41,923 nucleotides of DNA from a virus (IMGVR_UViG_2630968543_000002); one strand, 5' to 3'; shown: positions 5,185 to 35,307, counted from the first letter of the stretch. The notes: a model not told the origin generated them from the sequence alone. Numbers and translations are program-made.

Positions 5185-5274
5185 TTACCTCGGCTTGTTA
5201 CCGTTGAGGTAATGGTTATGCGTATTTGGTTTGATGTCAATAGATATGAGTTAAAAAAATTACCCATAAGGTAA
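5185..5274. promoter_or_regulatory. Left operator/promoter region (OL-like): two perfect TTACC-N5-GGTAA palindromes (5198..5212, 5260..5274) plus a TTACC half-site at 5185..5189
   Basis: Direct reading; a minus-strand TTGACA -35 hexamer lies between the two sites (plus 5235..5240, as tgtcaa). Confidence 0.65.
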
Positions 5275-5287
5275 TCTTGATGGCAAT

Positions 5288-5309
5288 AAAAAAGCCGCCA
5301 TGAGGCGGC
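5288..5309 (-). terminator. Rho-independent terminator downstream of the repressor gene
   Basis: GCCGCC-ATGA-GGCGGC hairpin (5294..5309) followed on the minus strand by a 6-U tract (plus A-run 5288..5293). Confidence 0.6.
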
Positions 5310-5331
5310 TTACTTGCTGAAAACTATAGTT

Positions 5332-5916
5332 TTATTGTTTATTTTTTTCGTTCTGGTTGATGACAAATTCAATGTAACTTTCGATCTTTGCTTTCTCGGT
5401 TTCGGGTAACAATGCGTAGCGCGAGCGGTCATAGTTGATGGTCGCAGGGTCGTGCGGGTGAATCAGTAATTCATAGCCGTGACGCCCGAATGCGGATGCA
5501 ACATTCTCCAGGGTGGAAATGGAAACGCTGACCTCATTGTTTAACAGGCGGCTGATTGTTACCTGGGCGACGCCGGATGCGCGGTGAAGTTTTCCCTGTG
5601 TTGAAAGGTCGCGGCTTTCGCTCATCCAGCGTTCCAGGTTGTGAGCCGCCAGCTGACCAATGTCGCTTGGGCCGACAGGCTGAAAACCTTCCTGAGAAAG
5701 CGAGCGATCGATATCAAGCCAGTTACGGGGTTTATTGGCGGCAGCTTCAATTTTTCGCGCAACCTGGTCGCCGATAACCTTCTTGCCAAGAGCCCAGCGG
5801 TTTACCAGATTTGCCTGAGTTCCAAGTTTTTCTGCCATCCGCGTCTGAACACCATTGAATTCACGGTCGATCAAGTCGTTGAGATTTTGCCTGCGGACGT
5901 CCTGGATACTTTTCAT
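5332..5916 (-). CDS. Prophage repressor with two tandem HTH domains (CI analogue); no S24 peptidase domain evident
   Basis: 194-aa ORF with two HTH-like segments (QTRMAEKLGTQANLVNRWALGKK and GVAQVTISRLLNNEVSVSISTLENVA); divergent from the Cro-like gene across an operator-rich spacer. Confidence 0.75.
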   Translation of the reverse strand: MKSIQDVRRQNLNDLIDREFNGVQTRMAEKLGTQANLVNRWALGKKVIGDQVARKIEAAANKPRNWLDIDRSLSQEGFQPVGPSDIGQLAAHNLERWMSESRDLSTQGKLHRASGVAQVTISRLLNNEVSVSISTLENVASAFGRHGYELLIHPHDPATINYDRSRYALLPETEKAKIESYIEFVINQNEKNKQ

Positions 5917-5971
5917 TTTCTGGAAAATCGCCTCATATATGAATCAGTAGATGATTCAATTTAAAGCAATA

Positions 5972-6034
5972 TTACCCAACAGGTAAATGCACCTCATAGG
6001 TAACTATCCTTGATTTTTGTTACCTTATGGGTGA
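5972..6034. promoter_or_regulatory. Right operator region (OR-like) between repressor and cro: one perfect site (5972..5986) and two degenerate sites (5989..6003 GCACC-N5-GGTAA; 6020..6034 TTACC-N5-GGTGA)
   Basis: Direct reading; the third site lies between a TTGATT -35 (6011..6016) and a GAATAT -10 (6034..6039) of the putative rightward promoter. Confidence 0.65.
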
Positions 6035-6070
6035 ATATTTATTATCTGAAATAAATATCAGGCAATAGCT

Positions 6071-6301
6071 ATGAGCGATAACGGACATTTCGATTTCAAA
6101 AAGCACTGGCTTGCACTTACTCCGGATGAGCGTGAAGCCTTCGCACAGGAAGCCGGAACGACGAGTCACTATATCCAGACTCACTTAACAGGTAAGCGCA
6201 AAATGCCAGGTAAGGTATTGATGAATGGGCTTTTTAAAGCCTGTAAAACAAGACAATGGCTGCGCTCAAAAGCAGAACTGGCATACTTCTTCTACTCATG
6301 A
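6071..6301 (+). CDS. Cro-like small DNA-binding protein
   Basis: 76-aa ORF divergent from the repressor, followed by a terminator; putative HTH segment EAFAQEAGTTSHYIQTHLTGKRKMP. Confidence 0.65.
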   Translation: MSDNGHFDFKKHWLALTPDEREAFAQEAGTTSHYIQTHLTGKRKMPGKVLMNGLFKACKTRQWLRSKAELAYFFYS

Positions 6302-6323
6302 TATCCATCCACAACCCTCTGTA

Positions 6324-6348
6324 GACCGCCATCCGGCGGTCTTTTCAT
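6324..6348 (+). terminator. Rho-independent terminator after cro (tR1-like)
   Basis: GACCGCC-ATCC-GGCGGTC hairpin followed by TTTTCAT. Confidence 0.6.
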
Positions 6349-6356
6349 ATCTATTC

Positions 6357-6371
6357 GTACCTCAAAGGTAA
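6357..6371. promoter_or_regulatory. Operator-like site GTACC-TCAAA-GGTAA (one mismatch) just downstream of the cro terminator
   Basis: Direct reading. Confidence 0.4.
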
Positions 6372-6451
6372 TAAAAAACCAAATCTGGTTGATCTTTTTT
6401 TTGTGTCAGCACAAAATGACCGTAATCCCAATACTAATAACAGGGCTTACC

Positions 6452-6652
6452 ATGGAAATCATTACACGTATTGATGCCGCAAAGCGCGGACTTAAACGCT
6501 ACTACACCGGAAAACCATGTAAGCACGGACATGACAGTGAACGCTGGGTTTACAACGGACACTGTGTTGAGTGCACTATGGAATCAAACCGTCGCATCAG
6601 GGCAGAGATTAAGCAGATCATGATTAATTCCTCCCCACAACATTCAAGCTGA
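6452..6652 (+). CDS. Hypothetical Cys/His-rich protein (CKHGHD...GHCVEC, possible zinc ribbon); sits where lambda carries cII; start uncertain (ORF opens at 6389)
   Basis: ORF 6389..6652; internal ATG at 6452 gives a 66-aa product. Confidence 0.45.
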   Translation: MEIITRIDAAKRGLKRYYTGKPCKHGHDSERWVYNGHCVECTMESNRRIRAEIKQIMINSSPQHSS

Positions 6653-6667
6653 TAGCGGAGATTAATC

Positions 6668-7483
6668 ATGAGCAGACATGCAACAGATTGGGCCTGGGAG
6701 ACAGATCCAGGTAGCTCGTCATTAAAGCTCATACTGCTCTCGATGGCTGACAGAGCCGATGAATATAACCTCTGCTACCCCAGCATAGAACGCCTCGTTA
6801 AAGACACTTGCCTGAATAAAAAAACCGTGCAGGCCGGGCTTATATCGCTCATGAAGATGGGGCTTATTTCAGATACCGGAGAGAGAAAGGGTGCGACGAA
6901 AAGAGTGCGGGTTTTCTCTCTTAATATAACCAAAAACGGGAACATTAAAGGCAACCGGGAAGGGGGTAATGAACCCGAAAACGGTAATGTTACCGAAAAC
7001 GGGAATATACCCAAAAACGGGATGTTGAATGATCCCAAAAACGGGATGTTGAATGATCCCAAAAACGGGATCCAGAACCAGTCATATAACCAGTCATTTA
7101 ACCAAGAGAGGGAGAGCAGGACAAAAAGCGGGGATTCTGTGCCTCATGACCCCGGCGCAAACAACGCCGTGATGAATAACTTTGTTCCTCCTGGTGGGCC
7201 AGGGCAATTAGGCAAATTTGTCATGCATGAACAATGGCAGCCATCAGATGACTTTCTTCGGAAAAGCTCATTGCAGGGGATCTACCTGGACAGCCTGCCA
7301 ACGGCACAGGAGCTTGCAGAGTTCAGAATTTACTGGATGGCTGAGGGTAAGGCATACCATCAGGCACAGTGGGAGCAGAAGCTGGCAAGGCGGCTGCAGA
7401 TTAGCAGACAGAAGCAATCAACATTACCTGATAACAACGTTCCGCACTGGAACAGCCCTGAAGCGTGGGAGGATTTCTTGTGA
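6668..7483 (+). CDS. Replication initiator (lambda O analogue) with DnaT-like C-terminal domain; the gene contains the putative origin iterons
   Basis: 271-aa ORF; N-terminal winged-helix-like region (LKLILLSMADRADEYNLCYPSIERLVKDT), central NG-rich repeats encoded by the iterons, C-terminal FRIYWMAEGKAYHQAQWEQKLARRLQ; GGAG Shine-Dalgarno. Confidence 0.75.
   Translation: MSRHATDWAWETDPGSSSLKLILLSMADRADEYNLCYPSIERLVKDTCLNKKTVQAGLISLMKMGLISDTGERKGATKRVRVFSLNITKNGNIKGNREGGNEPENGNVTENGNIPKNGMLNDPKNGMLNDPKNGIQNQSYNQSFNQERESRTKSGDSVPHDPGANNAVMNNFVPPGGPGQLGKFVMHEQWQPSDDFLRKSSLQGIYLDSLPTAQELAEFRIYWMAEGKAYHQAQWEQKLARRLQISRQKQSTLPDNNVPHWNSPEAWEDFL
6929..7072. repeat. Origin-like iteron array: six copies of CC(A/G)AAAACGG(G/T)A, the last three as 24-bp tandem repeats, followed by AACCAGTCAT direct repeats
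   Basis: Direct reading (copies at about 6930, 6975, 6993, 7011, 7035, 7059). Confidence 0.7.
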
Positions 7484-8265
7484 ACAACGTTTTTACCGCG
7501 ATACAAAACCGTGACGGAGAAGCCCTTTCTCGCATGTCAGGTTATGAGCATCAGTACGTCAACAATGACAATGTGGTGAACATGTCAGCAGAGAGGCTTG
7601 TTGATGCCCTTTTCAAACAGCTGAAACAACTGTTTCCGGCGGCAGTAGTAACCAACCTGAAGACGCCAGAGCAGGAAGTTGCTGCAAAACAGCAGTGGAT
7701 TGCTGCGTTTGCCGAAGGGGGGATCCGAACCCGTGAACAGGTTTCTGCTGGTATGCGCCACGCCCGCGCCAGTGAATCTCCGTTCTGGCCGTCGCCAGGG
7801 CAATTCATCAAGTGGTGTAAAGACAGCAAGATGGTTCTTGGCGTCACCATTGACGATGTGATGGCGGAGTTTCACCGGTACAGCAAGGAAAAAAGTTTAT
7901 ATCCTGGTGGTCCCGAAAGATTCCCGTGGCGACATCCGGTTATGTACTGGGTCGTATGTGATACCCGCCGTGCAATGTATCAGCGCCAGCTTAGCGAGAT
8001 TGAGGTTGAGAAACACGCGCGCAGGCTGCTCGATGATTGGGCGAAAAAGGTAGCTTCCGGACAGCAGATACCCGATCCGGTGATCAGCATACAGGCAAAG
8101 CCAGAACCCATGAGTACGCCTCCGGACACAGGGAGAGACGTTTACCATCCACCAGGGCGAAGTTTCGGGTGCATGCCTAACGCCGCCACCCTTGGGGGAA
8201 TAACACCGGCGCAGTGGCTGATGGAGGAATACAGGCGGGGAAAGGCGGCAGGATTTATCAAGTAA
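7480..8265 (+). CDS. Lambda P-like replication protein (helicase loader)
   Basis: Matches lambda P as recalled (REQVSAGMRHARASESPFWPSPGQFIKWC versus lambda MEQVNAGMRVARRQNRPFLPSPGQFVAWC); GTG start at 7480 with GGGAGG 7 nt upstream, GTGA overlap with the O-like stop. Confidence 0.85.
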   Translation: MNNVFTAIQNRDGEALSRMSGYEHQYVNNDNVVNMSAERLVDALFKQLKQLFPAAVVTNLKTPEQEVAAKQQWIAAFAEGGIRTREQVSAGMRHARASESPFWPSPGQFIKWCKDSKMVLGVTIDDVMAEFHRYSKEKSLYPGGPERFPWRHPVMYWVVCDTRRAMYQRQLSEIEVEKHARRLLDDWAKKVASGQQIPDPVISIQAKPEPMSTPPDTGRDVYHPPGRSFGCMPNAATLGGITPAQWLMEEYRRGKAAGFIK

Positions 8266-8270
8266 TACCA

Positions 8271-8290
8271 GCGCGATAGCGCATTTTTTT
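8271..8290 (+). terminator. Weak terminator-like element after the P-like gene
   Basis: 4-bp GC stem (GCGC-GATA-GCGC) followed by seven T. Confidence 0.3.
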
Positions 8291-8302
8291 ACGTCTCGAT
8301 AA

Positions 8303-8317
8303 TTACCTGTGAGGTAA
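8303..8317. promoter_or_regulatory. Perfect operator palindrome TTACC-TGTGA-GGTAA, immediately preceded by GATAAT (-10-like)
   Basis: Direct reading. Confidence 0.55.
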
Positions 8318-8364
8318 TAAAATATTCTAAACTCTATTGATTTCGTGTCTTATGTGGTTTTTAA

Positions 8365-8379
8365 TTACCTCAGGGGTAA
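8365..8379. promoter_or_regulatory. Perfect operator palindrome TTACC-TCAGG-GGTAA, 4 nt upstream of the 8383 start codon; TATGTGGTT motif 5 bp upstream (8351..8359)
   Basis: Direct reading. Confidence 0.55.
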
Positions 8380-8382
8380 ATT

Positions 8383-8730
8383 ATGAGAAAACAGATACAG
8401 GCTCTTGGTCGACTCAAAACAGGCCAGATGAACAAAACAGAATCTGCGTATTGCCAGCACCTTGAGATGCGTAAACGTGCAGGAGAAATCGTCTGGTATC
8501 GATTTGAGGGTATCAAGCTGCGGTTAGCTGACAACACGTTCTATACGCCCGATTTTGCTGTGATGCTCGCCACCGGCGAGATGGAGCTGCACGAAGTGAA
8601 AGGGGGATTCTGGACCGACGACGCCAGGGTGAAAACCAAAGTCGCCGCAGATCAGTATCCGTTCCGAATCATCGGGGTAACGGTTAAACCAAAGAAAGCA
8701 GGTGGTGGCTGGAACATCGAAGAGTTCTGA
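8383..8730 (+). CDS. PD-(D/E)XK nuclease-like protein (resembles DUF1064)
   Basis: 115-aa ORF with putative PD...E.K motif (YTPDFAVM...ELHEVKGG). Confidence 0.6.
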   Translation: MRKQIQALGRLKTGQMNKTESAYCQHLEMRKRAGEIVWYRFEGIKLRLADNTFYTPDFAVMLATGEMELHEVKGGFWTDDARVKTKVAADQYPFRIIGVTVKPKKAGGGWNIEEF

Positions 8731-8791
8731 ATCGACGATCTTTTTAGTTATCAATGTAATCAATAAGTTATGTGGATAAGCGAGGGTAAAG

Positions 8792-9424
8792 ATGGAAAGT
8801 AATATCAAAGGGTTAGTTGCCGCCGGGCATGAGATGGCTTCGGAACTGAAAGCAGAATGTGGTGCCGTTGATATGCGCAGTGTGGCAAAGCTGCTCAGCG
8901 ATTTGGCAACGCAACTGGAAGTGCAACTGGTGCGTGCTAATGTGCTGGCCGAAGACCAGCAGAAAGCGATTGAGTCAATTAAGCAGGCTGATTCGGCTGT
9001 TAAGTTGGCACACGAGAAGTTTTCGGCGCTGGCGGCGGAGAATGCGGGGCTGAAACATGCAATGGCTGTAACTCTTGAGCATGTGTCGGTCACGGATGCA
9101 GGGCAGGCCGGAGTTGCTGCAATGATTATCAACGATGCCCTGCACCACAGCGAAACTCCAGCCACCGATGCTTTTCTGGCTGAAATTCGTGCGGAGGCTC
9201 GCAACGAGGGGATTAACTATACCGCAAGCCGTCTTGCTGCTGCTTTCAACCACGGATTTATCAATAAGTCTTTACGTGAAGTTTTCGACGTTACACGCAT
9301 GATTCTGTCAGCGAAAGAAGAGTTGGCTAATGAACCGCACCCGATTGATGGCCTGTCCGGTGAATATGCGGAGAAATCCCTTGAAGAATGGGCGGAACAG
9401 ATTCGCAAAGGAGCTGACAAGTGA
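8792..9424 (+). CDS. Coiled-coil protein, paralogue A (possibly Ead/Ea22-like; unverified)
   Basis: 210-aa ORF; C-terminal about 90 aa (TPATDAFLAEIRAEARNEGINYTA...EEWAEQIRKGADK) paralogous to the C-terminus of 9840..10640; GAGGG Shine-Dalgarno. Confidence 0.6.
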   Translation: MESNIKGLVAAGHEMASELKAECGAVDMRSVAKLLSDLATQLEVQLVRANVLAEDQQKAIESIKQADSAVKLAHEKFSALAAENAGLKHAMAVTLEHVSVTDAGQAGVAAMIINDALHHSETPATDAFLAEIRAEARNEGINYTASRLAAAFNHGFINKSLREVFDVTRMILSAKEELANEPHPIDGLSGEYAEKSLEEWAEQIRKGADK

Positions 9425-9831
9425 AGAAGATGATTTTTGTCGCGGCATTGTTGGTGAATATCCAACAAGTGCATGCTTCAGCAGCTATTGTAGCCTCTAC
9501 CGCCGCGACTACGGCTGCTGTAGCTGCTGCGAACTCTGCGAATATCGCAAACCAACAGGCACAGCGTGCTGCTAATGCATCAGCCAGCGTTCACTCAATC
9601 ACCATTAAGAGCAGTAAGCAAAATCTGGGATTCATAACGTGCGGCACGCGTTCTAATGAAGCTGTAGGTTCACTTGGATGTACGGTATATGGGGGTAGTG
9701 AGAATAGAGAAATTCCATGGAAAACGTGGCCCGGATACGTTCTTGGCTCGAAGCTCCCGGCCAGTTATGAAGTAAACGCCGTATCGTTTGATCACTATAA
9801 CGGCGTGGCAACGGTCTATTTTGCATATTGA
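9421..9831 (+). CDS. Secreted/periplasmic protein of unknown function (N-terminal signal peptide)
   Basis: GTG start overlapping the upstream stop (GTGA); MKKMIFVAALLVNIQQVHA signal-like N-terminus, then an Ala/Asn/Gln-rich segment. Confidence 0.6.
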   Translation: MKKMIFVAALLVNIQQVHASAAIVASTAATTAAVAAANSANIANQQAQRAANASASVHSITIKSSKQNLGFITCGTRSNEAVGSLGCTVYGGSENREIPWKTWPGYVLGSKLPASYEVNAVSFDHYNGVATVYFAY

Positions 9832-9839
9832 GGCTCCGC

Positions 9840-10640
9840 ATGAAATTCTCCAAATTTTCTGAGTTGGTGAATCGTATTTTGTTGAATCGTATTTTGTCCA
9901 ACAACCACAGCCATCGTCGCGATATGGATGTAACGATCGTTGTTCATTCGCCTGGCAGCATTGGTTCAACACCCTCAGTTGAGGTTCAGTCAATTCACGC
10001 TGGTTTTGATTGGGATTCCGGGAAAGTGCTGATTTTCCCAGCACAGCCACTGACCACGCTAACACCAGAACAGATTACTGATATTACTGATAGTGTGCGC
10101 AAAGGTCAGTCCTGGCACGCATATCAGGAATACAAGAAGCATCAAGAGCAGTTGGAAAAATTATCGATTGAACTTGATACCGCAAAACAGCGCATTGCAG
10201 AGCTGGAGGGTAATCGCGCGGCGCTGGCTGCGGAGAATGCGAGACTGAAGGCGATATGTGAGGATCGCCGCACGTTCATTATGAATGGCGTGCAGCTTGG
10301 TTTTATCAAGGTGCCAACAGTGGAAATAGATCCAGCTCTTGAAACAATTCGTATCGCCCTATCACCACAAAAAACCACTCCTGCGACCGACACTTTCCTG
10401 GATGAAGTGAAGACTGAAGCACGCAAGGAGGGCGCTTACTTTGTGGCGAATAGAATGCTGGCTGCCTGGGAAGCTGGTTTTATTGATGATACTGCGAAGA
10501 ACGCCGCGGATATTGCCCGGATGATTCTTACCTCTACTGAGTTTATGGCTAATGCGCGGGAAGGCGATTTTGACCGCTCATTCTCTGATGGTGTTCTCGA
10601 AGATATCGCTGAACAGCTTCGCAAAGGAGGCAGCCAGTGA
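9840..10640 (+). CDS. Coiled-coil protein, paralogue B (possibly Ead/Ea22-like; unverified)
   Basis: ATG at 9840 with GAGG upstream; C-terminus TPATDTFLDEVKTEARKEGAYFVA...EDIAEQLRKGGSQ aligns with paralogue A; shared ALAAENA(G/R)LK coiled-coil segment. Confidence 0.6.
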   Translation: MKFSKFSELVNRILLNRILSNNHSHRRDMDVTIVVHSPGSIGSTPSVEVQSIHAGFDWDSGKVLIFPAQPLTTLTPEQITDITDSVRKGQSWHAYQEYKKHQEQLEKLSIELDTAKQRIAELEGNRAALAAENARLKAICEDRRTFIMNGVQLGFIKVPTVEIDPALETIRIALSPQKTTPATDTFLDEVKTEARKEGAYFVANRMLAAWEAGFIDDTAKNAADIARMILTSTEFMANAREGDFDRSFSDGVLEDIAEQLRKGGSQ

Positions 10641-11140
10641 GCGAGCTTTACTATCAGACGTTACGTGAACGTTTTTCACCGAAACCAGCGCCTAAATGCT
10701 CTGTTTGTGGCGAGGAAATGTCAATACAGCGCATATCTGGAGCACATGTTGTTTATGCCTGTTCCGGTGAGGGTGATGACGGATATTTTAAGATAGGGCG
10801 TACTTTTGCAGACGAACATTATGAAAAATCACGCGTAACAGTAGTTGATGATAGTGATCCCGATGTGATTGCACTACTGGACGAACTGGAGGCAGCAAAA
10901 TCAAAACTCAACGAGCAGCGCGAGTATTACGAGGGAGTTATCTCTGATGGGTGCAAGCGTATTGCTGAACTGGAAGCGCGGGAAGTTCAATTACCGACTC
11001 GCTACGACCTTCGATATGGACACCCGATAAATGCAGATGAGCGACAAGTCATGATACCTAAAGAAAATGGCAGTTGGCTTTACCTGATTGACCTAGAACA
11101 CGCATTACGCGTCGCTGACATTCGCATCAAAGGAGAGTGA
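10637..11140 (+). CDS. Hypothetical protein with N-terminal Cys cluster (CSVCGEE...YAC)
   Basis: GTG start with AGGAGG upstream and GTGA overlap with the preceding stop. Confidence 0.55.
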   Translation: MSELYYQTLRERFSPKPAPKCSVCGEEMSIQRISGAHVVYACSGEGDDGYFKIGRTFADEHYEKSRVTVVDDSDPDVIALLDELEAAKSKLNEQREYYEGVISDGCKRIAELEAREVQLPTRYDLRYGHPINADERQVMIPKENGSWLYLIDLEHALRVADIRIKGE

Positions 11141-11141
11141 T

Positions 11142-11405
11142 ATGGCAACTTTGACAAAAAAAGAACAAGCATGGTTGAGCGAATTACAGGACGTTCTTGA
11201 TCGCTGCCCATCACCGAAAAAAATTGGTTTTTACACCATTGGCGATAAAAGCATTTACCTGTATGACCTGCGCCGCATGGATGAAATCATGGAGGCTCTT
11301 GATAATCGTTCGTCAATGGATTGGTGTGTTGCTGTTCATGATATGAATGCCGGATTTGATGAAAAGATTTTATTCCCCTCATCAGTTGAAAGTACAGCAG
11401 GATAA
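11142..11405 (+). CDS. Hypothetical protein (87 aa)
   Basis: ORF starts 1 nt after the upstream stop. Confidence 0.5.
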   Translation: MATLTKKEQAWLSELQDVLDRCPSPKKIGFYTIGDKSIYLYDLRRMDEIMEALDNRSSMDWCVAVHDMNAGFDEKILFPSSVESTAG

Positions 11406-11415
11406 GGACTAACAC

Positions 11416-12153
11416 ATGACCACTATTACCAAAGAGCGACTGCTGACAATCAGGCAGTGGCGCGAAACATACGGACCTGGTAGCAACGTTGTACTGCCAG
11501 CAGAAGAAGCGGAAGAACTGGCACGAATTGCTCTGGCATCGCTGGAAGCAGAGCCGATAGGTTTCCGTTGCAGGCGCAATGATAACCTTGGTGATTGGAG
11601 TTACGTATATCATCGAGAGCCAGATGATTTTGAGCGCAAACATTTAGTGATAGAGGGCATTTACGCCGCCCCTCCAGCACCGGTAGTGCCTGAAGAAGCA
11701 ACTCCGGAAAACGTAGAAATGCTCTCTGGCTATGTTTCAACGTACAAATTAACCGATAGCGAGCGCGATATTGCTGCCGAAATATGGAACGCCTGCCGCG
11801 CCGCCATGCTTCAGTCCGGAAACTTTCGGGAAAATAAGGATTCGTCAACCAATAATTTTCGGGAAACCTCGGAAACGTCAACCAACTCTCCGGTAACTCC
11901 GGATGGTTGGGTTATGGTGCCGAAGAAACTAACCGCTGAGAACGGCGCTAAGGGTGTGCTATCCGGTGAATTTTCAGAAACTACGTTTATAAGCTGCCCG
12001 GAATGCTTTGGCGATGATGATTGCGATACCTGTGACGGGAGCGGACGAATTGAAATTAAAGTACCAGTCACGTGGACGACCATAAAATCCATCTGGGATA
12101 AAGGTATTGCGCATTTTGCAGCAAAACCGCCGCAGGAGGTTAACCGTGGCTAA
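11416..12153 (+). CDS. Hypothetical protein with C-terminal zinc-finger-like motif (CPECFGDDDCDTCDGSG) and short internal repeats
   Basis: 245-aa ORF; GGA Shine-Dalgarno-like sequence upstream. Confidence 0.55.
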   Translation: MTTITKERLLTIRQWRETYGPGSNVVLPAEEAEELARIALASLEAEPIGFRCRRNDNLGDWSYVYHREPDDFERKHLVIEGIYAAPPAPVVPEEATPENVEMLSGYVSTYKLTDSERDIAAEIWNACRAAMLQSGNFRENKDSSTNNFRETSETSTNSPVTPDGWVMVPKKLTAENGAKGVLSGEFSETTFISCPECFGDDDCDTCDGSGRIEIKVPVTWTTIKSIWDKGIAHFAAKPPQEVNRG

Positions 12154-12427
12154 CCTGCAACTTGCCGTCAAAGGTGAATACTTCGATGCCATGATTCGCG
12201 GAGAGAAAACGGAAGAGTATCGCCTGTGTAATGACTACTGGAATAAGCGCCTCGTTAACCGTAAGTATGACCGCCTGATTATCACAAAGGGATATCCGAA
12301 GCGCGAAGACTTCAGTCGCAGAATTGACGTCCCGTATAACGGATATGAAATAAAAACAATCACACATCCACACTTCGGTGATAAACCGGTAAAGGTGTTC
12401 GCGATAAAGGTAAATATTGATGGCTAA
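12146..12427 (+). CDS. ASCH/PUA-like domain protein (resembles DUF3850)
   Basis: GTG start with AGGAGG 6 nt upstream; N-terminus LQLAVKGEYFDAMIRGEKTEEYR matches the ASCH-type pattern. Confidence 0.55.
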   Translation: MANLQLAVKGEYFDAMIRGEKTEEYRLCNDYWNKRLVNRKYDRLIITKGYPKREDFSRRIDVPYNGYEIKTITHPHFGDKPVKVFAIKVNIDG

Positions 12428-12758: not shown

Positions 12759-12766
12759 CATGTCAC
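12755..12766. repeat. Perfect 12-bp palindrome GTGACATGTCAC, copy 1 of 3
   Basis: Direct reading. Confidence 0.7.
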
Positions 12767-12807
12767 GAGTAGATTATGCATGATGAATTTGATGGGTTTT
12801 GAATACT

Positions 12808-12834: not shown

Positions 12835-12844
12835 CATGGTACTA

Positions 12845-12877
12845 TTACCACAACGGTAACAATTACCAGGGTGGTTA
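12845..12877. promoter_or_regulatory. Late-operon control region: perfect site TTACC-ACAAC-GGTAA (12845..12859) preceded by TACTAT, plus degenerate site TTACC-AGGGT-GGTTA (12863..12877) ending 2 nt before the terS start
   Basis: Direct reading. Confidence 0.55.
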
Positions 12878-12879
12878 TA

Positions 12880-15031: not shown

Positions 15032-15035
15032 GGTG

Positions 15036-15455: not shown

Positions 15456-15466
15456 GATCTCACCTT

Positions 15467-15730: not shown

Positions 15731-16052
15731 AACGCTGAGAGCACTTAGCCTGTTAAGGCGCCACACTTTGTCGCGGCTCCATAAATGCTCTCATCGTTGT
15801 ACCCTCGTCTCTTCCGAGGTGTCACACCGAATCGCCGGGATGGTGAATCCCCGTGCGCGGAATAAAACCGCTCGACTTGCACATTCCGGCTACCTGGTTC
15901 GTTTGCCCGAGCAAGGGAGGGTGCCCCTTAAACGTATCCAGACCGCTATCGGCGCATGTGCCATACGCCGTACTGCTCAAAATAAAAGCTCACCCCACCT
16001 GTTCAATTTAACGACAAGCCAGTCAGATTAGTAACTGGAGTGAATTCTTTGA

Positions 16053-16067
16053 TTACCTGAAAGGTAA
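16053..16067. promoter_or_regulatory. Perfect operator palindrome ATTACC-TGAAA-GGTAAT upstream of the portal operon; TATGTGGTT motif 44 bp downstream (16111..16119)
   Basis: Direct reading. Confidence 0.55.
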
Positions 16068-16157
16068 TAATTCGCGCATTAAATGTCAACTGTCTACGAT
16101 AAATAAATCATATGTGGTTAAATTGGTAATAATTTAATTGCGTACGGAGTCATTGAT

Positions 16158-32370: not shown

Positions 32371-32391
32371 AAAAAAGCCCGCGGCGCGGGC
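32371..32391 (-). terminator. Rho-independent terminator for the minus-strand two-gene operon
   Basis: GCCCGC-GGC-GCGGGC hairpin followed on the minus strand by six U (plus A-run 32371..32376). Confidence 0.6.
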
Positions 32392-32831
32392 TATTCTTCT
32401 TCATCATAAAAAAGCGGATTGTCGTTTCCATCTGATGAAAGGAAAGGTATGTGTTCTCTTGAAAATCCAACAACGACAATTTCATTATCATTTTTTGCAT
32501 AATGAATGCATTCATTAGAATGCATTCCGCCGGGGTTGAAATTTAAGTTAATGGTATAATTCTTAAATGTGTTTGGATACCATGTTGGCCCACAATGATA
32601 ATGCCAATAATTCTCTTGCTCATAATTGTCTGAGCCGGGAATTTTATCATGGTTATCATCAACCCACGATGGCTTGTTTTTTCCAACAAGCGCCCTTCCA
32701 TTGGCAACATCTTCTAAAAACCTTTGTATGATTTTTATTTCATCGTCAGTAAGGAAAGGTCCGTCTACAGCGAAAGGGGTGTTGCTTTCCCCATTTAGAA
32801 AACTATTAGATATTCTAATGTTAAACTTCAA
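32391..32831 (-). CDS. Hypothetical protein (146 aa), acidic C-terminus, no recognisable domain; second gene of the accessory operon
   Basis: TTG start with AGGAG 6 nt upstream, 20 nt after the stop of the small upstream gene. Confidence 0.5.
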   Translation of the reverse strand: MKFNIRISNSFLNGESNTPFAVDGPFLTDDEIKIIQRFLEDVANGRALVGKNKPSWVDDNHDKIPGSDNYEQENYWHYHCGPTWYPNTFKNYTINLNFNPGGMHSNECIHYAKNDNEIVVVGFSREHIPFLSSDGNDNPLFYDEEE

Positions 32832-32851: not shown

Positions 32852-33019
32852 CTATTTGGAGCGAAATGCCGCCTTGAAGTCGCTGAAAGATGTTCCTGTC
32901 TGGTAAACCATATCCTTGTCGCGCTCTTTGCTTGCGCGGCCAAGCATAACTTTTCCAATGACATCCCAGCATTGCTTGGCTTGTTCATTGTGCTGAGTAC
33001 GATTTTTCAACGCTGTCAT
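32852..33019 (-). CDS. Small hypothetical protein (55 aa); first gene of the accessory operon; not in the ORF track
   Basis: Hand translation MTALKNRTQHNEQAKQCWDVIGKVMLGRASKERDKDMVYQTGTSFSDFKAAFRSK; GGAGG 6 nt upstream. Confidence 0.5.
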   Translation of the reverse strand: MTALKNRTQHNEQAKQCWDVIGKVMLGRASKERDKDMVYQTGTSFSDFKAAFRSK

Positions 33020-33031
33020 ATCGCGCCTCCT

Positions 33032-33075
33032 TTACCTTTAAGGTAATAGTACGCTATTCACCCCCAGTCTGCAAT
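33032..33075 (-). promoter_or_regulatory. Sigma70-like promoter (-35 TTGCAG, 17-bp spacer, -10 TACTAT) with a perfect operator TTACC-TTAAA-GGTAA (33032..33046) overlapping the -10/+1
   Basis: Direct reading of the minus strand. Confidence 0.6.
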
Positions 33076-33119: not shown

Positions 33120-33812
33120 TCAGAAAAATCCTGCTTTATCGTTGATGTACTCCGCGTGGGTCTCGATATCACGCAGGCATTTGCTCACACCGACGATGTA
33201 GCAGAACATGGTGGTCAGCTCCGCCGCCGCGCCCGATACGTCGTGCCCGTCTTCCTGTAACTGGTTCAGCAGATTCATCAGCAGTGAGTTCTCCGTCAGG
33301 CCGAGAACACCAGACGGCGAGTGAATCAGACTGCGGTAGCCGGGCTTCAGTGGGGCGCTGTAGGTTTTGTTCTCTATCTTCATTGCCTGCATCACTGCTG
33401 ACGCCGTGGCGTTGGCAACCTGGTCGGCAACCATCTTTATGCGTTCTTCCTGCGGGAGCGAGTTTTTAATGTAGCTTCCGGTGCGGCGGATCTGAGGAAG
33501 AACCTCACCTGTAACCCATTCAAGAAATCTGAATGCTCTCGTTCCCTCTGTCATTGCCTCTTTGCAACGCAGAATAAGGATGTAGAGACCTGATTCTGAA
33601 ACGATGGATAGTTCTTGTATTCCACCAGGGGTCTGTATTGAATGCAGCCCCTTTTTGTTCCAGCCTTTTTTATCAAGTTTTCTCGCTTGTGTAACATCAA
33701 TATTCAAAGCATTGCACACATCTTTGGTGACAAACCAAGGTTCTCCGTCAATCATGAACATACGGATCTGGCAGGATGACTCAAAGGAAAAGATGGAAGG
33801 TTTGGTATTCAT
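33120..33812 (-). CDS. Bro-N domain protein / putative antirepressor (Ant-like)
   Basis: N-terminal Bro-N signature (IFSFESSCQIRMFMIDGEPWFVTKDVCNALNI); AAGGTGA 5 nt upstream of ATG 33812 (ORF opens at 33857 with TTG); C-terminal domain paralogous to gene 34959..35216. Confidence 0.75.
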   Translation of the reverse strand: MNTKPSIFSFESSCQIRMFMIDGEPWFVTKDVCNALNIDVTQARKLDKKGWNKKGLHSIQTPGGIQELSIVSESGLYILILRCKEAMTEGTRAFRFLEWVTGEVLPQIRRTGSYIKNSLPQEERIKMVADQVANATASAVMQAMKIENKTYSAPLKPGYRSLIHSPSGVLGLTENSLLMNLLNQLQEDGHDVSGAAAELTTMFCYIVGVSKCLRDIETHAEYINDKAGFF

Positions 33813-33966
33813 GGCGATCACCTTTGTAGTTAGGTTAATCACCACCGCTGAGACCAATCAGATGGTGGTGAACTGTGCAGAGTTGGTCTTACCGGCTACA
33901 AAGGAACCCGGCGCACCTTTCGGTGCCCCCACACAGCCCACCATAGAATAGGTGCGCTTTACACAT

Positions 33967-34080
33967 AAAAAAACCGCTTATGCGGCATATGTGCCTCTGT
34001 AGTAATCCGGGAGACCAATCCCGGCACTGGATTTTGCCAGTGCCCGATTACTATGGCACAAGAGGAGTGCGATGTAAATT
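33967..34080 (-). ncRNA. Candidate structured leader or small RNA upstream of the Bro-N gene (tentative)
   Basis: Minus-strand promoter (-35 TTGATT, 17-bp spacer, -10 TATCAT) abutting the operator at 34080..34094; two stable hairpins (34007..34024 and 34024..34043) and a short GC stem followed by seven U (33967..33985). Confidence 0.25.
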
Positions 34081-34094
34081 TACCGAAAAGGTAA
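34080..34094. promoter_or_regulatory. Perfect operator palindrome TTACC-GAAAA-GGTAA
   Basis: Direct reading. Confidence 0.55.
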
Positions 34095-34172
34095 TGATAA
34101 GCGCGAAAAAACATTAAAATCAACCGTATTTGGTTGATTGCGTTTAACGCTTGATCACCTGAAAGCAAGATA

Positions 34173-34187
34173 TTACCTTTAAGGTAA
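34173..34187. promoter_or_regulatory. Perfect operator palindrome ATTACC-TTTAA-GGTAAT preceded by AGATAT (-10-like), 21 nt upstream of the 34208 start codon
   Basis: Direct reading; core 15-mer identical to the site at 33032. Confidence 0.55.
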
Positions 34188-34207
34188 TGTTATTGTGAGG
34201 AAAAGCA

Positions 34208-34936
34208 ATGGAAGTTTTCTGGATAGTTGTTGGTGTGGTTGCGGTGATTATTTACGTTATCAACCAGAACAAGACTAAGATCTCTGATCGTACGGTCGTT
34301 AATCAGAACAAAACGATAAAGACCGAAGATGGGGAGATAACGATTAATCGTACACAGGTGATAGAGCACACATCTACTCAGTTTCAAAAAACTGGAGGTA
34401 ACGCTCCTGATATTTCCGTACCTCCTGCTTATGATAGTGCGGTAATCCAGACATATTATAAACAGCAGGAGTTAGCAAAAGAGAGGCAACTGATTCAGCC
34501 AAAGCCGTTTACAGCTGAGCTTCCACCTGGAGTGTCAACGCGTCCGGCATATCATGGAAGATTCCCTGGTGATGACATATCGTCTCAGTCATTTAAAAAA
34601 GCACCTCAGGCAGTATCAGAGCCAGCAAGAATATCTTCTGTATCGCCGCCAAAAGAAGAATCAGCTAACAGAGTTTCAAGCGGTAGCAAGCAGTGCTTGC
34701 GATGCAGAATAAACCTTCCATATGAAAAATTCAGGAAATCGTCAAAAAATCCGGATGGATTGACTAAGTGGTGTGCAAGGTGTCTCGATGGCCCAAAGAA
34801 TACACGTCATATGAAGTGGTGCCCAATTTGTAATGTCCGCAGAAAACGAACCAGCTTTTACCCTAATAATCAAAATGCGGACGGCTTAATGGCATGGTGC
34901 AAAACGTGCTGGGACGAGCACAAAGCGAAACGATAG
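34208..34936 (+). CDS. Membrane-anchored protein with two C-terminal zinc-ribbon-like repeats (unknown function)
   Basis: N-terminal hydrophobic helix (EVFWIVVGVVAVIIYVI); two repeats of C-x2-C-x16-17-DGL-x3-WC-x2-C; GAGG Shine-Dalgarno. Confidence 0.65.
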   Translation: MEVFWIVVGVVAVIIYVINQNKTKISDRTVVNQNKTIKTEDGEITINRTQVIEHTSTQFQKTGGNAPDISVPPAYDSAVIQTYYKQQELAKERQLIQPKPFTAELPPGVSTRPAYHGRFPGDDISSQSFKKAPQAVSEPARISSVSPPKEESANRVSSGSKQCLRCRINLPYEKFRKSSKNPDGLTKWCARCLDGPKNTRHMKWCPICNVRRKRTSFYPNNQNADGLMAWCKTCWDEHKAKR

Positions 34937-34952
34937 GCCGCTCTTGCGGCCT
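34937..34952. terminator. Hairpin between convergent genes (possible bidirectional terminator)
   Basis: GGCCGC-TCTT-GCGGCC followed by TTTAAATTT. Confidence 0.45.
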
Positions 34953-34958
34953 TTAAAT

Positions 34959-35216
34959 TTACCTGGTTTGTTTTCGTAATTGTTCGGCACAATAGTCGAG
35001 ATGTGTTTGCAGATCCTGCATAGACATCTGTGAGCTGGTGACGTAGTTAATCAGTGCAGTCAGTTCGGCAAGTGGGCCATCGACATTAAATCCATCCTTA
35101 TTGAGATCCCGGAGTAATTTCATCAAGTGCGATCCCTCCACCAGTGACCTGACGCCTCCCGGCGTGTGAATCCTTTCGGTAAATCCGTCTTCCAGTGGAT
35201 AGTGATACTGCTGCAT
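34959..35216 (-). CDS. Hypothetical protein (85 aa), paralogue of the C-terminal domain of the Bro-N protein
   Basis: ATG at 35216 with GGAG upstream; TERIHTPGGVRSLVEGSHLMKLLRDLNKDGFNVDGPLAELT aligns with RSLIHSPSGVLGLTENSLLMNLLNQLQEDGHDVSGAAAELT. Confidence 0.55.
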   Translation of the reverse strand: MQQYHYPLEDGFTERIHTPGGVRSLVEGSHLMKLLRDLNKDGFNVDGPLAELTALINYVTSSQMSMQDLQTHLDYCAEQLRKQTR

Positions 35217-35292
35217 CTTATCTTCTCCATGCAATAACTGTATATTTATACAGTAGCAAATAATTTGTTTGCTATCCAGCACGTTTTGCAAA

Positions 35293-35307
35293 TTACCTGA
35301 AAGGTAA
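35293..35307. promoter_or_regulatory. Perfect operator palindrome ATTACC-TGAAA-GGTAAT between divergent gene 34959..35216 and the tailspike; TATGTGGTT motif and a GGTAAT half-site follow at 35339..35358
   Basis: Direct reading. Confidence 0.55.

What the first reader, a model, noticed from the sequence alone, without database searches (positions are those of the whole stretch)
5185..35307. A 15-17 bp palindrome ATTACC-N5-GGTAAT is dispersed across the whole prophage, always intergenic
At least 11 perfect copies of TTACC-N5-GGTAA (5198, 5260, 5972, 8303, 8365, 12845, 16053, 33032, 34080, 34173, 35293) plus four near-matches were read directly; a 10-specified-base palindrome is expected far less than once by chance in 42 kb. 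Copies cluster on both sides of the repressor gene like lambda OL/OR, but also sit in front of the PD-(D/E)XK gene, the terminase operon, the portal operon, the accessory genes and the tailspike, usually abutting a -10-like hexamer. This suggests one DNA-binding protein, probably the tandem-HTH repressor, controls many promoters genome-wide, as P1 C1 and mycobacteriophage stoperators do.
Basis: partly seen in the sequence, partly recalled or inferred. Interest (0 to 1): 0.8.

Follow-up and report, generated by a model that had tools for sequence, protein, structure and literature searches.

The report
Known repressor operators across a prophage
The repeated 17-bp palindrome is real and is almost certainly the binding site of this phiV10/epsilon15-type prophage's lysogeny repressor, placed at nearly every transcription unit, but the same sites are already annotated as repressor-binding sites in the reference phage epsilon15, so the finding is sound rather than new.

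Summary
There are 11 perfect TTACC-N5-GGTAA copies (0.02 expected in the window, 0.003 in its intergenic DNA) and 4 degenerate copies. All lie in the ~7% of the prophage that is non-coding. A PWM scan puts all 15 at the top, and the best coding hit scores 5.7 bits against 20-29.5 for the perfect sites.

The window is a Uetakevirus (phiV10/epsilon15-like) E. coli prophage. The epsilon15 GenBank record already marks the same motif at seven corresponding positions as 'protein_bind: repressor'. The window's 194-aa repressor is identical to those of phiV10 and ZX5, and is a full-length homolog of the solved tetrameric SPC32H Rep.

In 12 further relatives from seven genera, the motif and its positions are conserved. 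Examples are 90 nt before the portal operon and pairs 62 bp apart bracketing promoters. The Rep recognition helix NLVNRW is invariant in five lineages.

The best reading is a genome-wide operator set for an antirepressor-controlled Rep. It works like P1 C1 or phiC31 repeats, not like stoperators. Direct repression of late operons remains inferred.

Novelty: already known. Interest is low to moderate.

The parts
5332..5916 (-). Rep, the lysogeny repressor (194 aa; N-terminal HTH DNA-binding domain plus a C-terminal HTH_3-like tetramerisation/Ant-binding domain; no S24 peptidase domain)
   Evidence: 100% identical to phiV10, ZX5 and PAS61 Rep. Full-length match to SPC32H Rep, PDB 5D50, E=4e-42. 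Pfam HTH_3 at residues 106-147. NLVNRW helix invariant in 5 lineages.
5197..5213 (.). Leftward-promoter (PL-like) proximal operator, GTTACCGTTGAGGTAAT; 19 nt upstream of the gp37-like ATG (5178)
   Evidence: A perfect -35 TTGACA (5240-5235, minus strand), a 17-nt spacer and AACCAT end in the operator's first 2 bases. The position is conserved in phiV10, PAS61 and Tyrion.
5259..5275 (.). PL-like distal operator, ATTACCCATAAGGTAAT; 62 bp from the proximal one, just after the rep terminator (5311-5292)
   Evidence: The 62 +/- 1 bp pair spacing recurs 25 times in 13 genomes.
5971..5987 (.). Operator 1 of the rep/gp39 divergent region (perfect), 55 nt from the rep ATG
   Evidence: the same offset occurs in all relatives.
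5988..6004 (.). Operator 2 of the rep/gp39 region (2 mismatches here: GCACC...GGTAA)
   Evidence: PWM 7.6 bits. The corresponding site is perfect in epsilon15, SPC32H, Klebsiella and Citrobacter.
6019..6035 (.). Operator 3 of the rep/gp39 region (TTACC...GGTGA), inside the rightward promoter-like TTGTTA-17-TATTAT (6017-6045)
   Evidence: The GGTGA variant is conserved at this position in most lineages that have a site there.
6071..6301 (+). gp39-like 76-aa protein, a Cro-like candidate that may read the same operators
   Evidence: phrog_35 'transcriptional repressor', E=6e-13. Invariant AGTTSHYIQxHLTG. No PDB, Pfam or NCBIfam match.
6356..6372 (.). Single 1-mismatch operator (GTACC...GGTAA) after the gp39 terminator, 80 nt before the gp40-like/replication genes
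   Evidence: the same variant and offset occur in phiV10 and Tyrion.
8302..8318 (.). Distal operator before the DUF1064 gene
8364..8380 (.). Proximal operator before the DUF1064 gene; 62 bp from the distal one, 3 nt before the ATG, with the spacer containing the RBS
   Evidence: TTGATT (8337-8342), a 17-nt spacer and TTTAAT end in the operator. The pair is conserved before DUF1064 or RuvC-like genes in every genome.
12844..12860 (.). TerS distal operator, 20 nt before ATG 12880
   Evidence: annotated as protein_bind 'repressor' at the corresponding epsilon15 position 12-27.
12862..12878 (.). TerS proximal degenerate operator (TTACC...GGTTA) overlapping the RBS, 2 nt before the ATG
   Evidence: a one-mismatch site recurs at this offset in six other phages or prophages. 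It is weak by score (5.8 bits).
16052..16068 (.). Operator before the gp3/portal operon, 90 nt before the gp3 ATG
   Evidence: The offset is 90 nt in six genomes and 91 in BUCT711. It is an island of conservation in an otherwise unalignable flank. It is annotated in epsilon15 at 2931-2947.
33031..33047 (.). Operator 12 nt upstream of the ATG of a small leftward gene (32852-33019, phrog_8607) heading an accessory operon with 32391-32831
   Evidence: AAGGAGG RBS, and TTGCAG-17-TACTAT ending in the operator.
34079..34095 (.). Operator on the leftward promoter of the Bro-N/Ant-like gene (33120-33857)
   Evidence: (minus strand, TTGATT-18-TATCAT ending in the operator). A comparable site precedes the Bro-N gene in phiV10 and Tyrion.
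34172..34188 (.). Operator 20 nt before the ATG of the rightward accessory gene 34208-34936 (phrog_6762)
35292..35308 (.). Operator in the ant/tailspike divergent region, 76 nt from the ant ATG and 104 nt from the tailspike ATG
   Evidence: annotated in epsilon15 at 19895-19911.
35238..35253 (.). Perfect LexA box, CTGTATATTTATACAG, in front of ant
   Evidence: conserved across relatives.
34962..35216 (-). Ant, the small antirepressor expected to inactivate Rep
   Evidence: 87% identical to SPC32H Ant and 96% to phiV10 p24; phrog_450.
33120..33857 (-). Second antirepressor-like protein: Bro-N domain fused to an Ant-like C-terminus
   Evidence: Pfam Bro-N; phrog_130 and phrog_450; 39% identical to SPC32H Ant over the C-terminus.

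Best explanation
The 17-bp palindrome A-TTACC-N5-GGTAA-T is the operator of the Uetakevirus lysogeny repressor Rep (5332-5916). Rep is a non-cleavable, tetrameric, two-domain HTH protein. Each pair of its N-terminal domains reads one palindrome, so one tetramer can hold two palindromes. The prophage is divided into at least nine transcription units, most following the order terminator, operator(s), promoter. At the leftward early promoter, the DUF1064 promoter and three accessory-gene promoters, the operator begins inside the -10 hexamer and covers the start site, which gives steric exclusion of RNA polymerase. At two of these, a second operator 62 bp upstream lets one tetramer clamp both sides of the core promoter. 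Between rep and gp39, three graded sites form a lambda-OR-like switch. Single sites upstream of the terminase, portal and tailspike/ant units would keep late and antirepressor functions silent in the lysogen. Induction is by antirepression: DNA damage removes LexA from the box in front of ant, and Ant then pulls Rep off all operators at once. Shown here are the statistics, the intergenic placement, conservation of motif, positions and spacings, and homology of Rep and Ant. Taken from the literature are Rep tetramer binding to palindromic sites and Ant action in SPC32H, and repression of lysis-gene transcription by the identical ZX5 Rep. Inferred are the assignment of Rep to these exact sites in this phage, the promoter positions, clamping, and direct control of the late operons.
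For: The motif is massively non-random and exclusively intergenic. The same motif at corresponding positions is annotated protein_bind 'repressor/lysogeny' in epsilon15, AY150271.2. Rep is 100% identical to the Rep of phiV10 and ZX5 and a full-length homolog of SPC32H Rep, 5D50. SPC32H Rep binds palindromic DNA as a tetramer and is released by tetrameric Ant (PMC9638917; PMC9986798). Overexpressing the identical ZX5 Rep abolished free phage and cut endolysin and holin transcripts by more than 99.9% (PMC9782041). Motif, positions and spacings are conserved in 13 genomes from Escherichia, Salmonella, Enterobacter, Klebsiella, Citrobacter, Erwinia, Superficieibacter and Scandinavium, although full-length Rep falls to about 42% identity. 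The NLVNRW recognition helix is invariant in five lineages. Distant NTD homologs with a different helix lack the motif. Half-sites are conserved while spacers and flanks diverge. Degenerate variants (GGTGA, GGTTA, GGTAT) recur at the same position in many lineages, suggesting tuned affinities. The operator overlaps the -10/+1 region at five promoter-like sites. An Ant ortholog and a perfect LexA box are present.
Against: No binding experiment for the phiV10-type Rep on these sites could be read. The primary papers (Kropinski 2007, Kim & Ryu 2013, Kim 2016) are not held, and the epsilon15 features are curator predictions. gp39 also has an invariant HTH-like stretch, so conservation alone does not separate Rep from a Cro-like co-binder. 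Promoter calls are pattern matches, and the scanner found no excess over shuffles in 5000-16500. At the portal and tailspike units the palindrome lies 40 and 28 nt upstream of a conserved late-promoter-like element, about -70 to -80 from the likely start, which is not a classical repressing position. This window lacks the site before the lysis operon that most relatives have.
Confidence: 0.85

Rival explanations
1. The copies outside the immunity region are read mainly by another phage regulator rather than by Rep. Candidates are the Cro-like gp39 (6071-6301), the phrog_536 regulator just before TerS (12417-12758), and the PerC-like activator (2089-2388). On this view the sites time lytic expression rather than silence it in the lysogen.
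For: gp39 belongs to a 'transcriptional repressor' PHROG and has an invariant HTH-like segment across the same lineages. Cro-type proteins commonly share operators with the repressor (established for lambda; my knowledge). Late-operon sites lie upstream of, not on, the candidate late promoter. Two further regulator genes exist.
Against: The dispersed copies are the same 17-mer as the sites flanking rep, with the same pair geometry. The epsilon15 curators assigned them to the repressor. A tetramer with two DNA-binding units explains the 62-bp pairs, whereas a 76-aa protein does not obviously do so. As a co-binder gp39 is plausible and compatible with the main explanation; as the exclusive binder it is unlikely.
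Confidence: 0.1
2. The single sites before late operons are not promoter operators. They are anchoring points that let Rep tetramers bridge distant sites or nearby half-sites, or roadblocks that stop read-through from upstream units.
For: They are positioned about -70 to -80 from the presumed late start. The gp3 and tailspike late-promoter elements contain a GGTAAT half-site in the operator register (TGGTT-N5-GGTAA). At gp3 its centre is exactly 62 bp from the palindrome centre, but at the tailspike the distance is 50 bp (coordinates from the sequence). The length of the diverged linker is conserved across genomes. Rep's tetramerisation domain is of a DNA-looping type. Sites follow terminators.
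Against: The 62 versus 50 bp distances are inconsistent. The half-sites score below background in the PWM. There is no transcript or binding data. This is a refinement of the Rep-operator explanation, not a replacement.
Confidence: 0.25
3. The palindromes act as RNA or DNA hairpins, for example as terminators, RNase III sites or RBS-sequestering stems, rather than as protein-binding sites.
For: They can form a 5-7 bp stem. Some proximal copies include the RBS in the loop (8365, 12863).
Against: The stems are weak (-3.3 to -5.2 kcal/mol) with no T-run. The arm sequence itself is invariant over 109 perfect copies in 13 genomes, rather than co-varying. The conserved variants are uncompensated single-arm changes such as GGTGA, GGTTA, GGTAT, TCACC and GTACC. 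Many copies lie upstream of promoters and would not be transcribed.
Confidence: 0.03
4. The sites bind a host factor, or are a dispersed mobile or repetitive element unrelated to phage regulation.
For: None specific. The epsilon15 record places predicted IHF sites next to some copies.
Against: The motif tracks the presence of a Rep with the NLVNRW helix across seven host genera and is absent from the host flank after attR at 40746-40762. Only 17 bp are conserved, with no repeat body around them.
Confidence: 0.02

Closest known systems
Repressor-binding sites of Salmonella phage epsilon15 (GenBank AY150271.2 protein_bind 'repressor') and the Rep/Ant switch of SPC32H (PDB 5D50/5D4Z)
   Same: The 17-bp palindrome is the same. 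So are the positions: before TerS, before gp3/portal, between ant and the tailspike, flanking rep, and before the RuvC/DUF1064 gene. Rep and Ant are orthologous, and there is a LexA box at ant.
   Different: This prophage carries the phiV10-type Rep, only 42% identical to the epsilon15 and SPC32H Rep overall (54% in the NTD). It has two rather than three leftward operators. It has three extra operators in a lineage-specific accessory island (33032, 34080, 34173) and none before the lysis operon. The epsilon15 record annotates only 7 of its roughly 15 copies.
Phage P1 C1 repressor and its dispersed operators (my knowledge; not checked with tools)
   Same: One immunity repressor controls many separate promoters scattered round the genome, and is inactivated by an antirepressor rather than by RecA-dependent cleavage.
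   Different: P1 operators are asymmetric 17-mers bound by C1 monomers. C1 is unrelated to Rep, which matches HTH_3 and 5D50. P1 is a plasmid prophage.
Streptomyces phage phiC31 c repressor and its 17-bp conserved inverted repeats in intergenic regions (my knowledge; no accessible paper found)
   Same: A highly conserved 17-bp inverted repeat is found at many intergenic positions across the genome and bound by the immunity repressor. This is the closest formal analogue.
   Different: The repressor family, sequence and host are unrelated. No antirepressor/LexA circuit is known to me for phiC31.
Mycobacteriophage L5-type stoperators (PMC9283540)
   Same: More than ten repressor sites are spread over the whole genome, mostly in short intergenic gaps.
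   Different: Stoperators are asymmetric 13-mers bound by a monomer through two domains. Their orientation follows transcription, and they block elongation. The sites here are symmetric, promoter-proximal, often paired, and read by a homolog of a tetrameric repressor.
Lambda OL/OR with CI and Cro (my knowledge)
   Same: There is a tripartite graded operator between divergent repressor and cro-like genes, further operators at the leftward promoter, and cooperative multi-site binding.
   Different: Rep has no S24 autocleavage domain. Operators extend well beyond the immunity region, and pairs bracket a promoter at 62 bp rather than lying side by side.

Membership tests
Uetakevirus (epsilon15/phiV10/SPC32H) Rep operator set | 17-bp palindrome ATTACC-N5-GGTAAT with an A/T-rich spacer | tested here: met
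   11 perfect and 4 degenerate copies; the PWM consensus is A-TTACC-T-N-W-N-A-GGTAA-T. It is identical to the annotated epsilon15 features.
Uetakevirus (epsilon15/phiV10/SPC32H) Rep operator set | The genome encodes a Rep ortholog (two-domain HTH protein of the 5D50 family) | tested here: met
   E=4e-42 over the full length to 5D50; 100% identical to phiV10 Rep; recognition helix invariant.
Uetakevirus (epsilon15/phiV10/SPC32H) Rep operator set | Sites occupy the same positions relative to orthologous genes as in reference phages | tested here: met
   TerS -20/-2, gp3 -90, DUF1064/RuvC -65/-3, rep +55/72/103, gp37 -19/-81, ant about -76 to -82.
Uetakevirus (epsilon15/phiV10/SPC32H) Rep operator set | Antirepressor Ant under LexA control provides induction | tested here: met
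   Ant ortholog at 34962-35216, 87% identical to SPC32H Ant; perfect LexA box at 35238-35253. LexA control itself is taken from the SPC32H literature (my recollection of Kim & Ryu 2013; paper not held).
Uetakevirus (epsilon15/phiV10/SPC32H) Rep operator set | Rep physically binds the 17-mer | not testable with these tools
   There is only indirect support: SPC32H Rep binds palindromic sites as a tetramer, and ZX5 Rep represses lysis genes.
Mycobacteriophage stoperators | Asymmetric site whose orientation follows the direction of transcription | tested here: not met
   The sites are perfect palindromes in the 10 specified bases. Definition from PMC9283540.
Mycobacteriophage stoperators | Monomeric repressor with an HTH plus a 'stoperator' domain (L5 gp71 family) | tested here: not met
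   Rep is a homolog of the tetrameric SPC32H Rep.
P1 C1-type immunity | C1-family repressor and asymmetric 17-bp operators | tested here: not met
   Rep matches HTH_3 and 5D50, and no C1-named family appeared among its hits. The operators are symmetric. The definition of the P1 system is from my own knowledge.
Lambda CI-type SOS-cleavable repressor | C-terminal S24 peptidase (LexA-like) autocleavage domain | tested here: not met
   No Peptidase_S24 hit; the C-terminal domain is HTH_3-like.

The most novel reading that the evidence does not exclude
Rep may gate the late operons directly, from unusual upstream positions. It would bridge the full palindrome to a GGTAAT half-site embedded in a conserved, activator-type late promoter element (CATATNTGGTT, then 7 nt, then TAATAR). 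Late genes would then be locked independently of the early cascade. In addition, all Uetakeviruses of at least seven enterobacterial genera would share one operator specificity although their Reps are only about 42% identical, forming a single cross-immunity group. As far as I could find, neither point has been tested experimentally.
Probability: 0.25. Interest if true: 0.45.

Novelty: already known. Interest (0 to 1): 0.2.

Why it matters
The sites give a complete, testable wiring diagram for lysogeny in a common group of E. coli, Salmonella and Klebsiella prophages. These phages change O-antigens and are being considered for detection and therapy. One antirepressor-controlled tetramer holds about 15 sites at nearly every transcription unit, so induction is an all-at-once release. 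The practical value is mainly for annotation. The sites mark promoter regions, correct the TerS start codon, and reveal small genes and regulated accessory cargo. The underlying regulatory principle and the motif itself were already recorded for epsilon15.

Tried and rejected
- **Primary papers.** I tried to read Kropinski et al. 2007 (PubMed 17825342 / PMC2698709), Kim & Ryu 2013 (PMC3807360) and Kim et al. 2016 (PMC4983836). None is held. Full-text searches for ATTACC/GGTAAT and for epsilon15 plus operator found no accessible description.
- **Exact annotation.** I looked for an identical annotated prophage in RefSeq E. coli genomes to borrow a PGAP annotation. Only ~97% relatives with <=89% coverage were found.
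- **Greedy gene map.** Choosing the longest ORFs picked wrong-strand ORFs, so I replaced it with homology transfer.
- **Sigma-70 scan.** It found no excess of promoter-like hits over shuffles in the early region, so promoter assignments are only readings of individual sites.
- **Hairpin or terminator function.** Rejected on weak energies and uncompensated variants.
- **Host-factor or mobile-repeat origin.** Rejected on distribution.
- **Distant Rep NTD homologs** (Paraburkholderia, Hydrogenovibrio, Thiomicrospira, Pseudomonas phage PseuP_224). I searched them for a co-varying alternative palindrome. They lack the motif, but no clear replacement palindrome emerged, so this is only one-sided covariation.
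- **gp39.** It has no solved or curated relative, so its DNA-binding role stays unresolved.
- **Not used.** I did not run structure prediction or the large protein-database searches, because the 5D50 match already settled Rep's family.

Full report
**Observation.** Dinucleotide-preserving shuffles expect 0.02, and none of 100 reached 11. Restricting the test to the 2,794 nt of AT-richer intergenic DNA still gives 0.003 expected against 11 observed.

**Identity of the window.** The region is about 97% identical over most of its length to Escherichia phages vB_EcoP_PAS61, phiv142-3, ZX5, TL-2011b and phiV10, and about 77% identical to Salmonella phage epsilon15 in the structural genes. All of these belong to the genus Uetakevirus. 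The window starts at the integrase start codon. The published attachment core ATTGAGTGGGAATGATT (PMC9782041) is at 40746-40762, so the prophage ends there and the last ~1.1 kb is host DNA. No identical prophage is present among complete RefSeq E. coli genomes.

**Coding versus non-coding.** I transferred the annotated proteins of phiV10, epsilon15, SPC32H and PAS61 onto the window by tblastn to obtain a homology-supported gene map.
- 92.9% of the prophage is coding, and all 15 sites are intergenic. The binomial probability for the 11 perfect sites is about 2e-13.
- A symmetrised 21-nt weight matrix built from the 11 sites ranks the 15 sites as the 15 best hits in the window. The best hit inside a gene scores 5.7 bits against 20.3-29.5 for the perfect sites.
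- Sites 5989 (7.6 bits) and 12863 (5.8 bits) are no better than coding background by score. They are credible only because the corresponding positions in relatives carry perfect or one-mismatch sites.
- phiV10's annotated TTG start for the small terminase (window 12799) would place 12845 and 12863 inside a gene. Epsilon15, SPC32H and Tyrion start at the ATG equivalent to 12880, and the putative extension contains a terminator hairpin at 12808-12825. I therefore take 12880 as the start.
- Small ORFs that overlap sites have no family support. ORF 32852-33019(-) is a real phage family (phrog_8607, E=4e-39). Its ATG lies 12 nt beyond site 33032, after an AAGGAGG ribosome-binding site.

**Already annotated.** The epsilon15 GenBank record AY150271.2 carries seven protein_bind features labelled 'repressor / lysogeny'. 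Their sequences are ATTACC-N5-GGTAAT. They lie before the small terminase, before gp3/portal, between gp19 (the Ant ortholog) and the tailspike, before the RuvC-like gene, and three next to the repressor gene. These are the places where the window has its sites. phiV10's own record has the motif but does not annotate it. From memory, the epsilon15 genome paper (Kropinski et al. 2007) describes this consensus, but I could not open that paper or the two SPC32H papers. The tool-based evidence for prior knowledge is therefore the GenBank annotation.

**The protein.** The 194-aa product of 5332-5916 is 100% identical to the repressors of phiV10, ZX5, PAS61 and others. It matches the solved SPC32H repressor (PDB 5D50) over its full length (E=4e-42).
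- Accessible papers describe SPC32H Rep as a tetramer that binds palindromic DNA sites through pairs of N-terminal domains contributed by different dimers. It is released by a tetrameric antirepressor, Ant (PMC9638917). Its C-terminal part is a DNA-looping-type tetramerisation domain (PMC9986798).
- For ZX5, whose Rep is identical to the window's, overexpression abolished free phage and reduced endolysin and holin transcripts by more than 99.9% (PMC9782041).
- Pfam finds HTH_3 in the C-terminal half and a weak HTH in the N-terminal half, and no S24 peptidase domain. The protein is 'tandem-HTH' by sequence, but it is not a lambda-type cleavable repressor.
- The window also encodes an Ant ortholog (34962-35216, 87% identical to SPC32H Ant), preceded by a perfect LexA box at 35238-35253. 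A second protein, at 33120-33857, has a Bro-N domain fused to an Ant-like C-terminus.

**Comparative evidence.**
- *Conservation of the motif.* In phiV10, epsilon15, SPC32H, PAS61, Enterobacter phage Tyrion and Klebsiella phage BUCT711, there are 8-11 perfect and 3-8 one-mismatch copies per genome, in conserved positions. These are 20 and 2 nt before the TerS ATG, 90 nt before gp3 (91 in BUCT711), 65 and 3 nt before the DUF1064 or RuvC-like gene, 55/72/103 nt from the rep ATG, 19 and 81 nt from the first leftward gene, and 76-82 nt from the ant ATG. A one-mismatch site also lies 42 nt before int, which is just outside this window.
- *Independent recovery.* A scan of one genome per bacterial species found six more prophages with a full-length Rep, in Superficieibacter, Erwinia, Klebsiella, two Citrobacter species and Scandinavium. 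Unbiased counting of all 5-N-5 palindromes returns TTACC-N5-GGTAA as the most frequent in each of them.
- *Spacings.* Over the 13 genomes there are 109 perfect and 57 one-mismatch copies. The central spacer base is A or T in 214 of 218 symmetrised counts. The neighbour spacing of 62 +/- 1 bp recurs 25 times, alongside recurrent 17-18, 30-31, 48 and 76 bp spacings.
- *Conservation island.* In alignments of corresponding upstream regions, the half-sites are conserved while the spacer and upstream flank are diverged or unalignable.
- *Tuned variants.* The 'imperfect' sites tend to be imperfect in the same way across lineages: GGTGA next to gp39, GGTTA or TTACT at the TerS ribosome-binding site, GGTAT before int, and TCACC before the lysis operon. 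This argues for tuned affinities rather than decay.
- *Recognition helix.* Rep falls to 42-45% identity between lineages, but its N-terminal domain is more conserved (54-56%) and the putative recognition helix NLVNRW is invariant. Distant homologs of the N-terminal domain in Paraburkholderia, Hydrogenovibrio and Thiomicrospira have different helices and no such palindrome, and Pseudomonas phage PseuP_224 also lacks the motif.

**Geometry and mechanism.** Reading the intergenic regions gives the following layout.
- *Leftward early promoter.* It has a perfect -35 (TTGACA, 5240-5235 on the minus strand), a 17-nt spacer, and AACCAT, whose last two bases are the first two of the proximal operator. 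The distal operator is 62 bp away, just after the rep terminator.
- *Other promoters with the same layout.* The DUF1064 promoter reads TTGATT-17-TTTAAT|TACC, and its proximal operator also contains the ribosome-binding site. The leftward promoter of the Bro-N/Ant-like gene reads TTGATT-18-TATCAT|TACC. The layout also appears before phrog_8607 (TTGCAG-17-TACTAT|TACC) and before TerS (TACTAT|TACC).
- *Divergent region.* Between rep and gp39, a promoter-like TTGTTA-17-TATTAT has operator 3 in its spacer.
- *Status of these calls.* They are pattern-level readings. The scanner shows no excess of promoter-like hits over shuffles in 5000-16500, and any hexamer ending in the operator's 'AT' starts with two matches.
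- *Model.* With that caveat, the picture is ordinary operator occlusion of -10/+1. At two promoters a second operator six helical turns upstream would let one tetramer hold both sides of the core promoter.
- *Unit structure.* Most units follow the order terminator, operator, promoter.

**Late operons.** The portal and tailspike sites are different. Downstream of each palindrome, by 40 and 28 nt respectively, lies a second conserved element: CATATGTGGTT, followed 7 nt later by TAATAA or TAATAG. The same element (CATATATGGTT) precedes the lysis genes. It has no -35 and looks like an activator-dependent late promoter.
- The palindrome would then be centred about 70-80 bp upstream of the start site, so direct repression there is an inference.
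- The linker length is conserved across genomes although its sequence is not, which suggests a spatial coupling.
- The late element contains a GGTAAT half-site in the operator register. Its centre is 62 bp from the palindrome at gp3 but 50 bp at the tailspike, so I treat bridging as a possibility only.
- Candidate late regulators are the phrog_536 'transcriptional regulator' encoded immediately before TerS and a PerC-like activator in the left operon.

**Rivals.**
- gp39 (76 aa, phrog_35 'transcriptional repressor') also has an invariant HTH-like stretch. It may share the operators as Cro does in lambda. It has no solved or curated relatives. This is compatible with the main explanation, and gp39 is unlikely to be the sole reader.
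- A hairpin function is rejected. The stems are only -3.3 to -5.2 kcal/mol, the arm sequence is invariant rather than co-varying, and the conserved variants are uncompensated.
- A host-factor or mobile-repeat origin is rejected. The motif follows the phage across seven host genera and stops at attR.

**Comparison with known systems.** This is a member of the Uetakevirus Rep operator set. Every defining feature testable here is met, and only physical binding cannot be tested. Functionally it resembles P1 C1 and, most closely in form, the 17-bp conserved inverted repeats of phiC31; both comparisons rest on my own knowledge, and no accessible paper was found. It is not a stoperator system. Stoperators are asymmetric, orientation-dependent 13-mers bound by a monomer that blocks elongation (PMC9283540). 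It is also not lambda-like in induction, since Rep has no S24 domain.

**What is specific to this prophage.** It has three additional operators in an accessory island between the internal-virion-protein genes and ant (33032, 34080, 34173). They control a phrog_8607/phrog_5954 operon, the Bro-N/Ant-like gene, and a zinc-ribbon protein of phrog_6762. It has no site before the lysis operon, unlike phiV10, epsilon15, SPC32H and Tyrion.

**Verdict.** However, the motif, its dispersed placement and its assignment to the repressor are already in the public record for the genus, and the repressor/antirepressor pair is structurally characterised. Novelty: already known. Interest: 0.2. The open parts are whether Rep directly controls late operons from upstream positions, what the 62-bp pairs do, and whether the genus forms one immunity group. 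These are modestly interesting and experimentally easy to test.

Noticed in passing
window 16109-16132, 35337-35360, 38767-38777 (related copy at 8349-8359): A second conserved element, CATATNTGGTT followed 7 nt later by TAATAA or TAATAG, lies just upstream of the portal, tailspike and lysis operons. It is nearly invariant across relatives (7/7 genomes at gp3 and tailspike, 6/7 at lysis). With one mismatch allowed it has 12 matches against 3.1 expected. It has no -35, so it is a candidate activator-dependent late promoter whose regulator is unknown. In the gp3 and tailspike copies the -10-like part is itself a GGTAAT Rep half-site.
   Followed up: partly
window 35238-35253: A perfect LexA box (CTGTATATTTATACAG) lies 22 nt upstream of the ant start codon and is conserved in relatives. 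This implies SOS induction through an antirepressor rather than repressor cleavage.
   Followed up: partly
window 33120-33857 (-): A second antirepressor-like gene: a Bro-N domain fused to a C-terminus 39% identical to SPC32H Ant. It has its own Rep operator (34080) on a good leftward promoter-like site (TTGATT-18-TATCAT). Two Ant-type modules in one prophage could mean two induction inputs or cross-talk with other prophages.
   Followed up: partly
window 32852-33019 (-): A small 55-aa gene (phrog_8607, E=4e-39) with an AAGGAGG ribosome-binding site. It is absent from the four reference annotations I used and lies directly under Rep operator 33032. It probably heads an operon with 32391-32831 (phrog_5954, unknown function).
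   Followed up: partly
window 6965-7104, inside the DnaT-like gene 6668-7483: A cluster of tandem repeats: 18 bp x3.1, 24 bp x2.6 (100% identical copies) and 12 bp x2.4. They look like replication-origin iterons embedded in a replication gene, as lambda ori lies within gene O.
   Followed up: partly
window 12755-12832 and gene 12417-12758: A promoter-like GTGACA-18-CATGAT is followed within ~25 nt by a strong terminator hairpin, just before the TerS operators. Immediately upstream is a gene of a 'transcriptional regulator' PHROG (phrog_536). The layout recalls lambda Q/PR'/tR' antitermination, but this is pattern-level only.
   Followed up: no
window 12799 versus 12880: phiV10's deposited small-terminase start (TTG, equivalent to 12799) is probably over-extended. 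The ATG at 12880 matches the epsilon15, SPC32H and Tyrion starts, has a GGTGG ribosome-binding site, and leaves the terminator and both operators outside the gene.
   Followed up: yes
window 1 and 40746-40762: The window begins exactly at the integrase start codon, so the conserved one-mismatch Rep site 42 nt upstream of int in all relatives is cut off. The attachment core ATTGAGTGGGAATGATT at 40746-40762 marks the right prophage end, and 40853-41923 is host DNA.
   Followed up: yes
window 6377-6390: A palindrome, AACCAAATCTGGTT, lies immediately after the degenerate operator 6357 in the gp39-gp40 intergenic region. It shares the TGGTT arm with the late-promoter-like element, and its function is unknown.
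   Followed up: no
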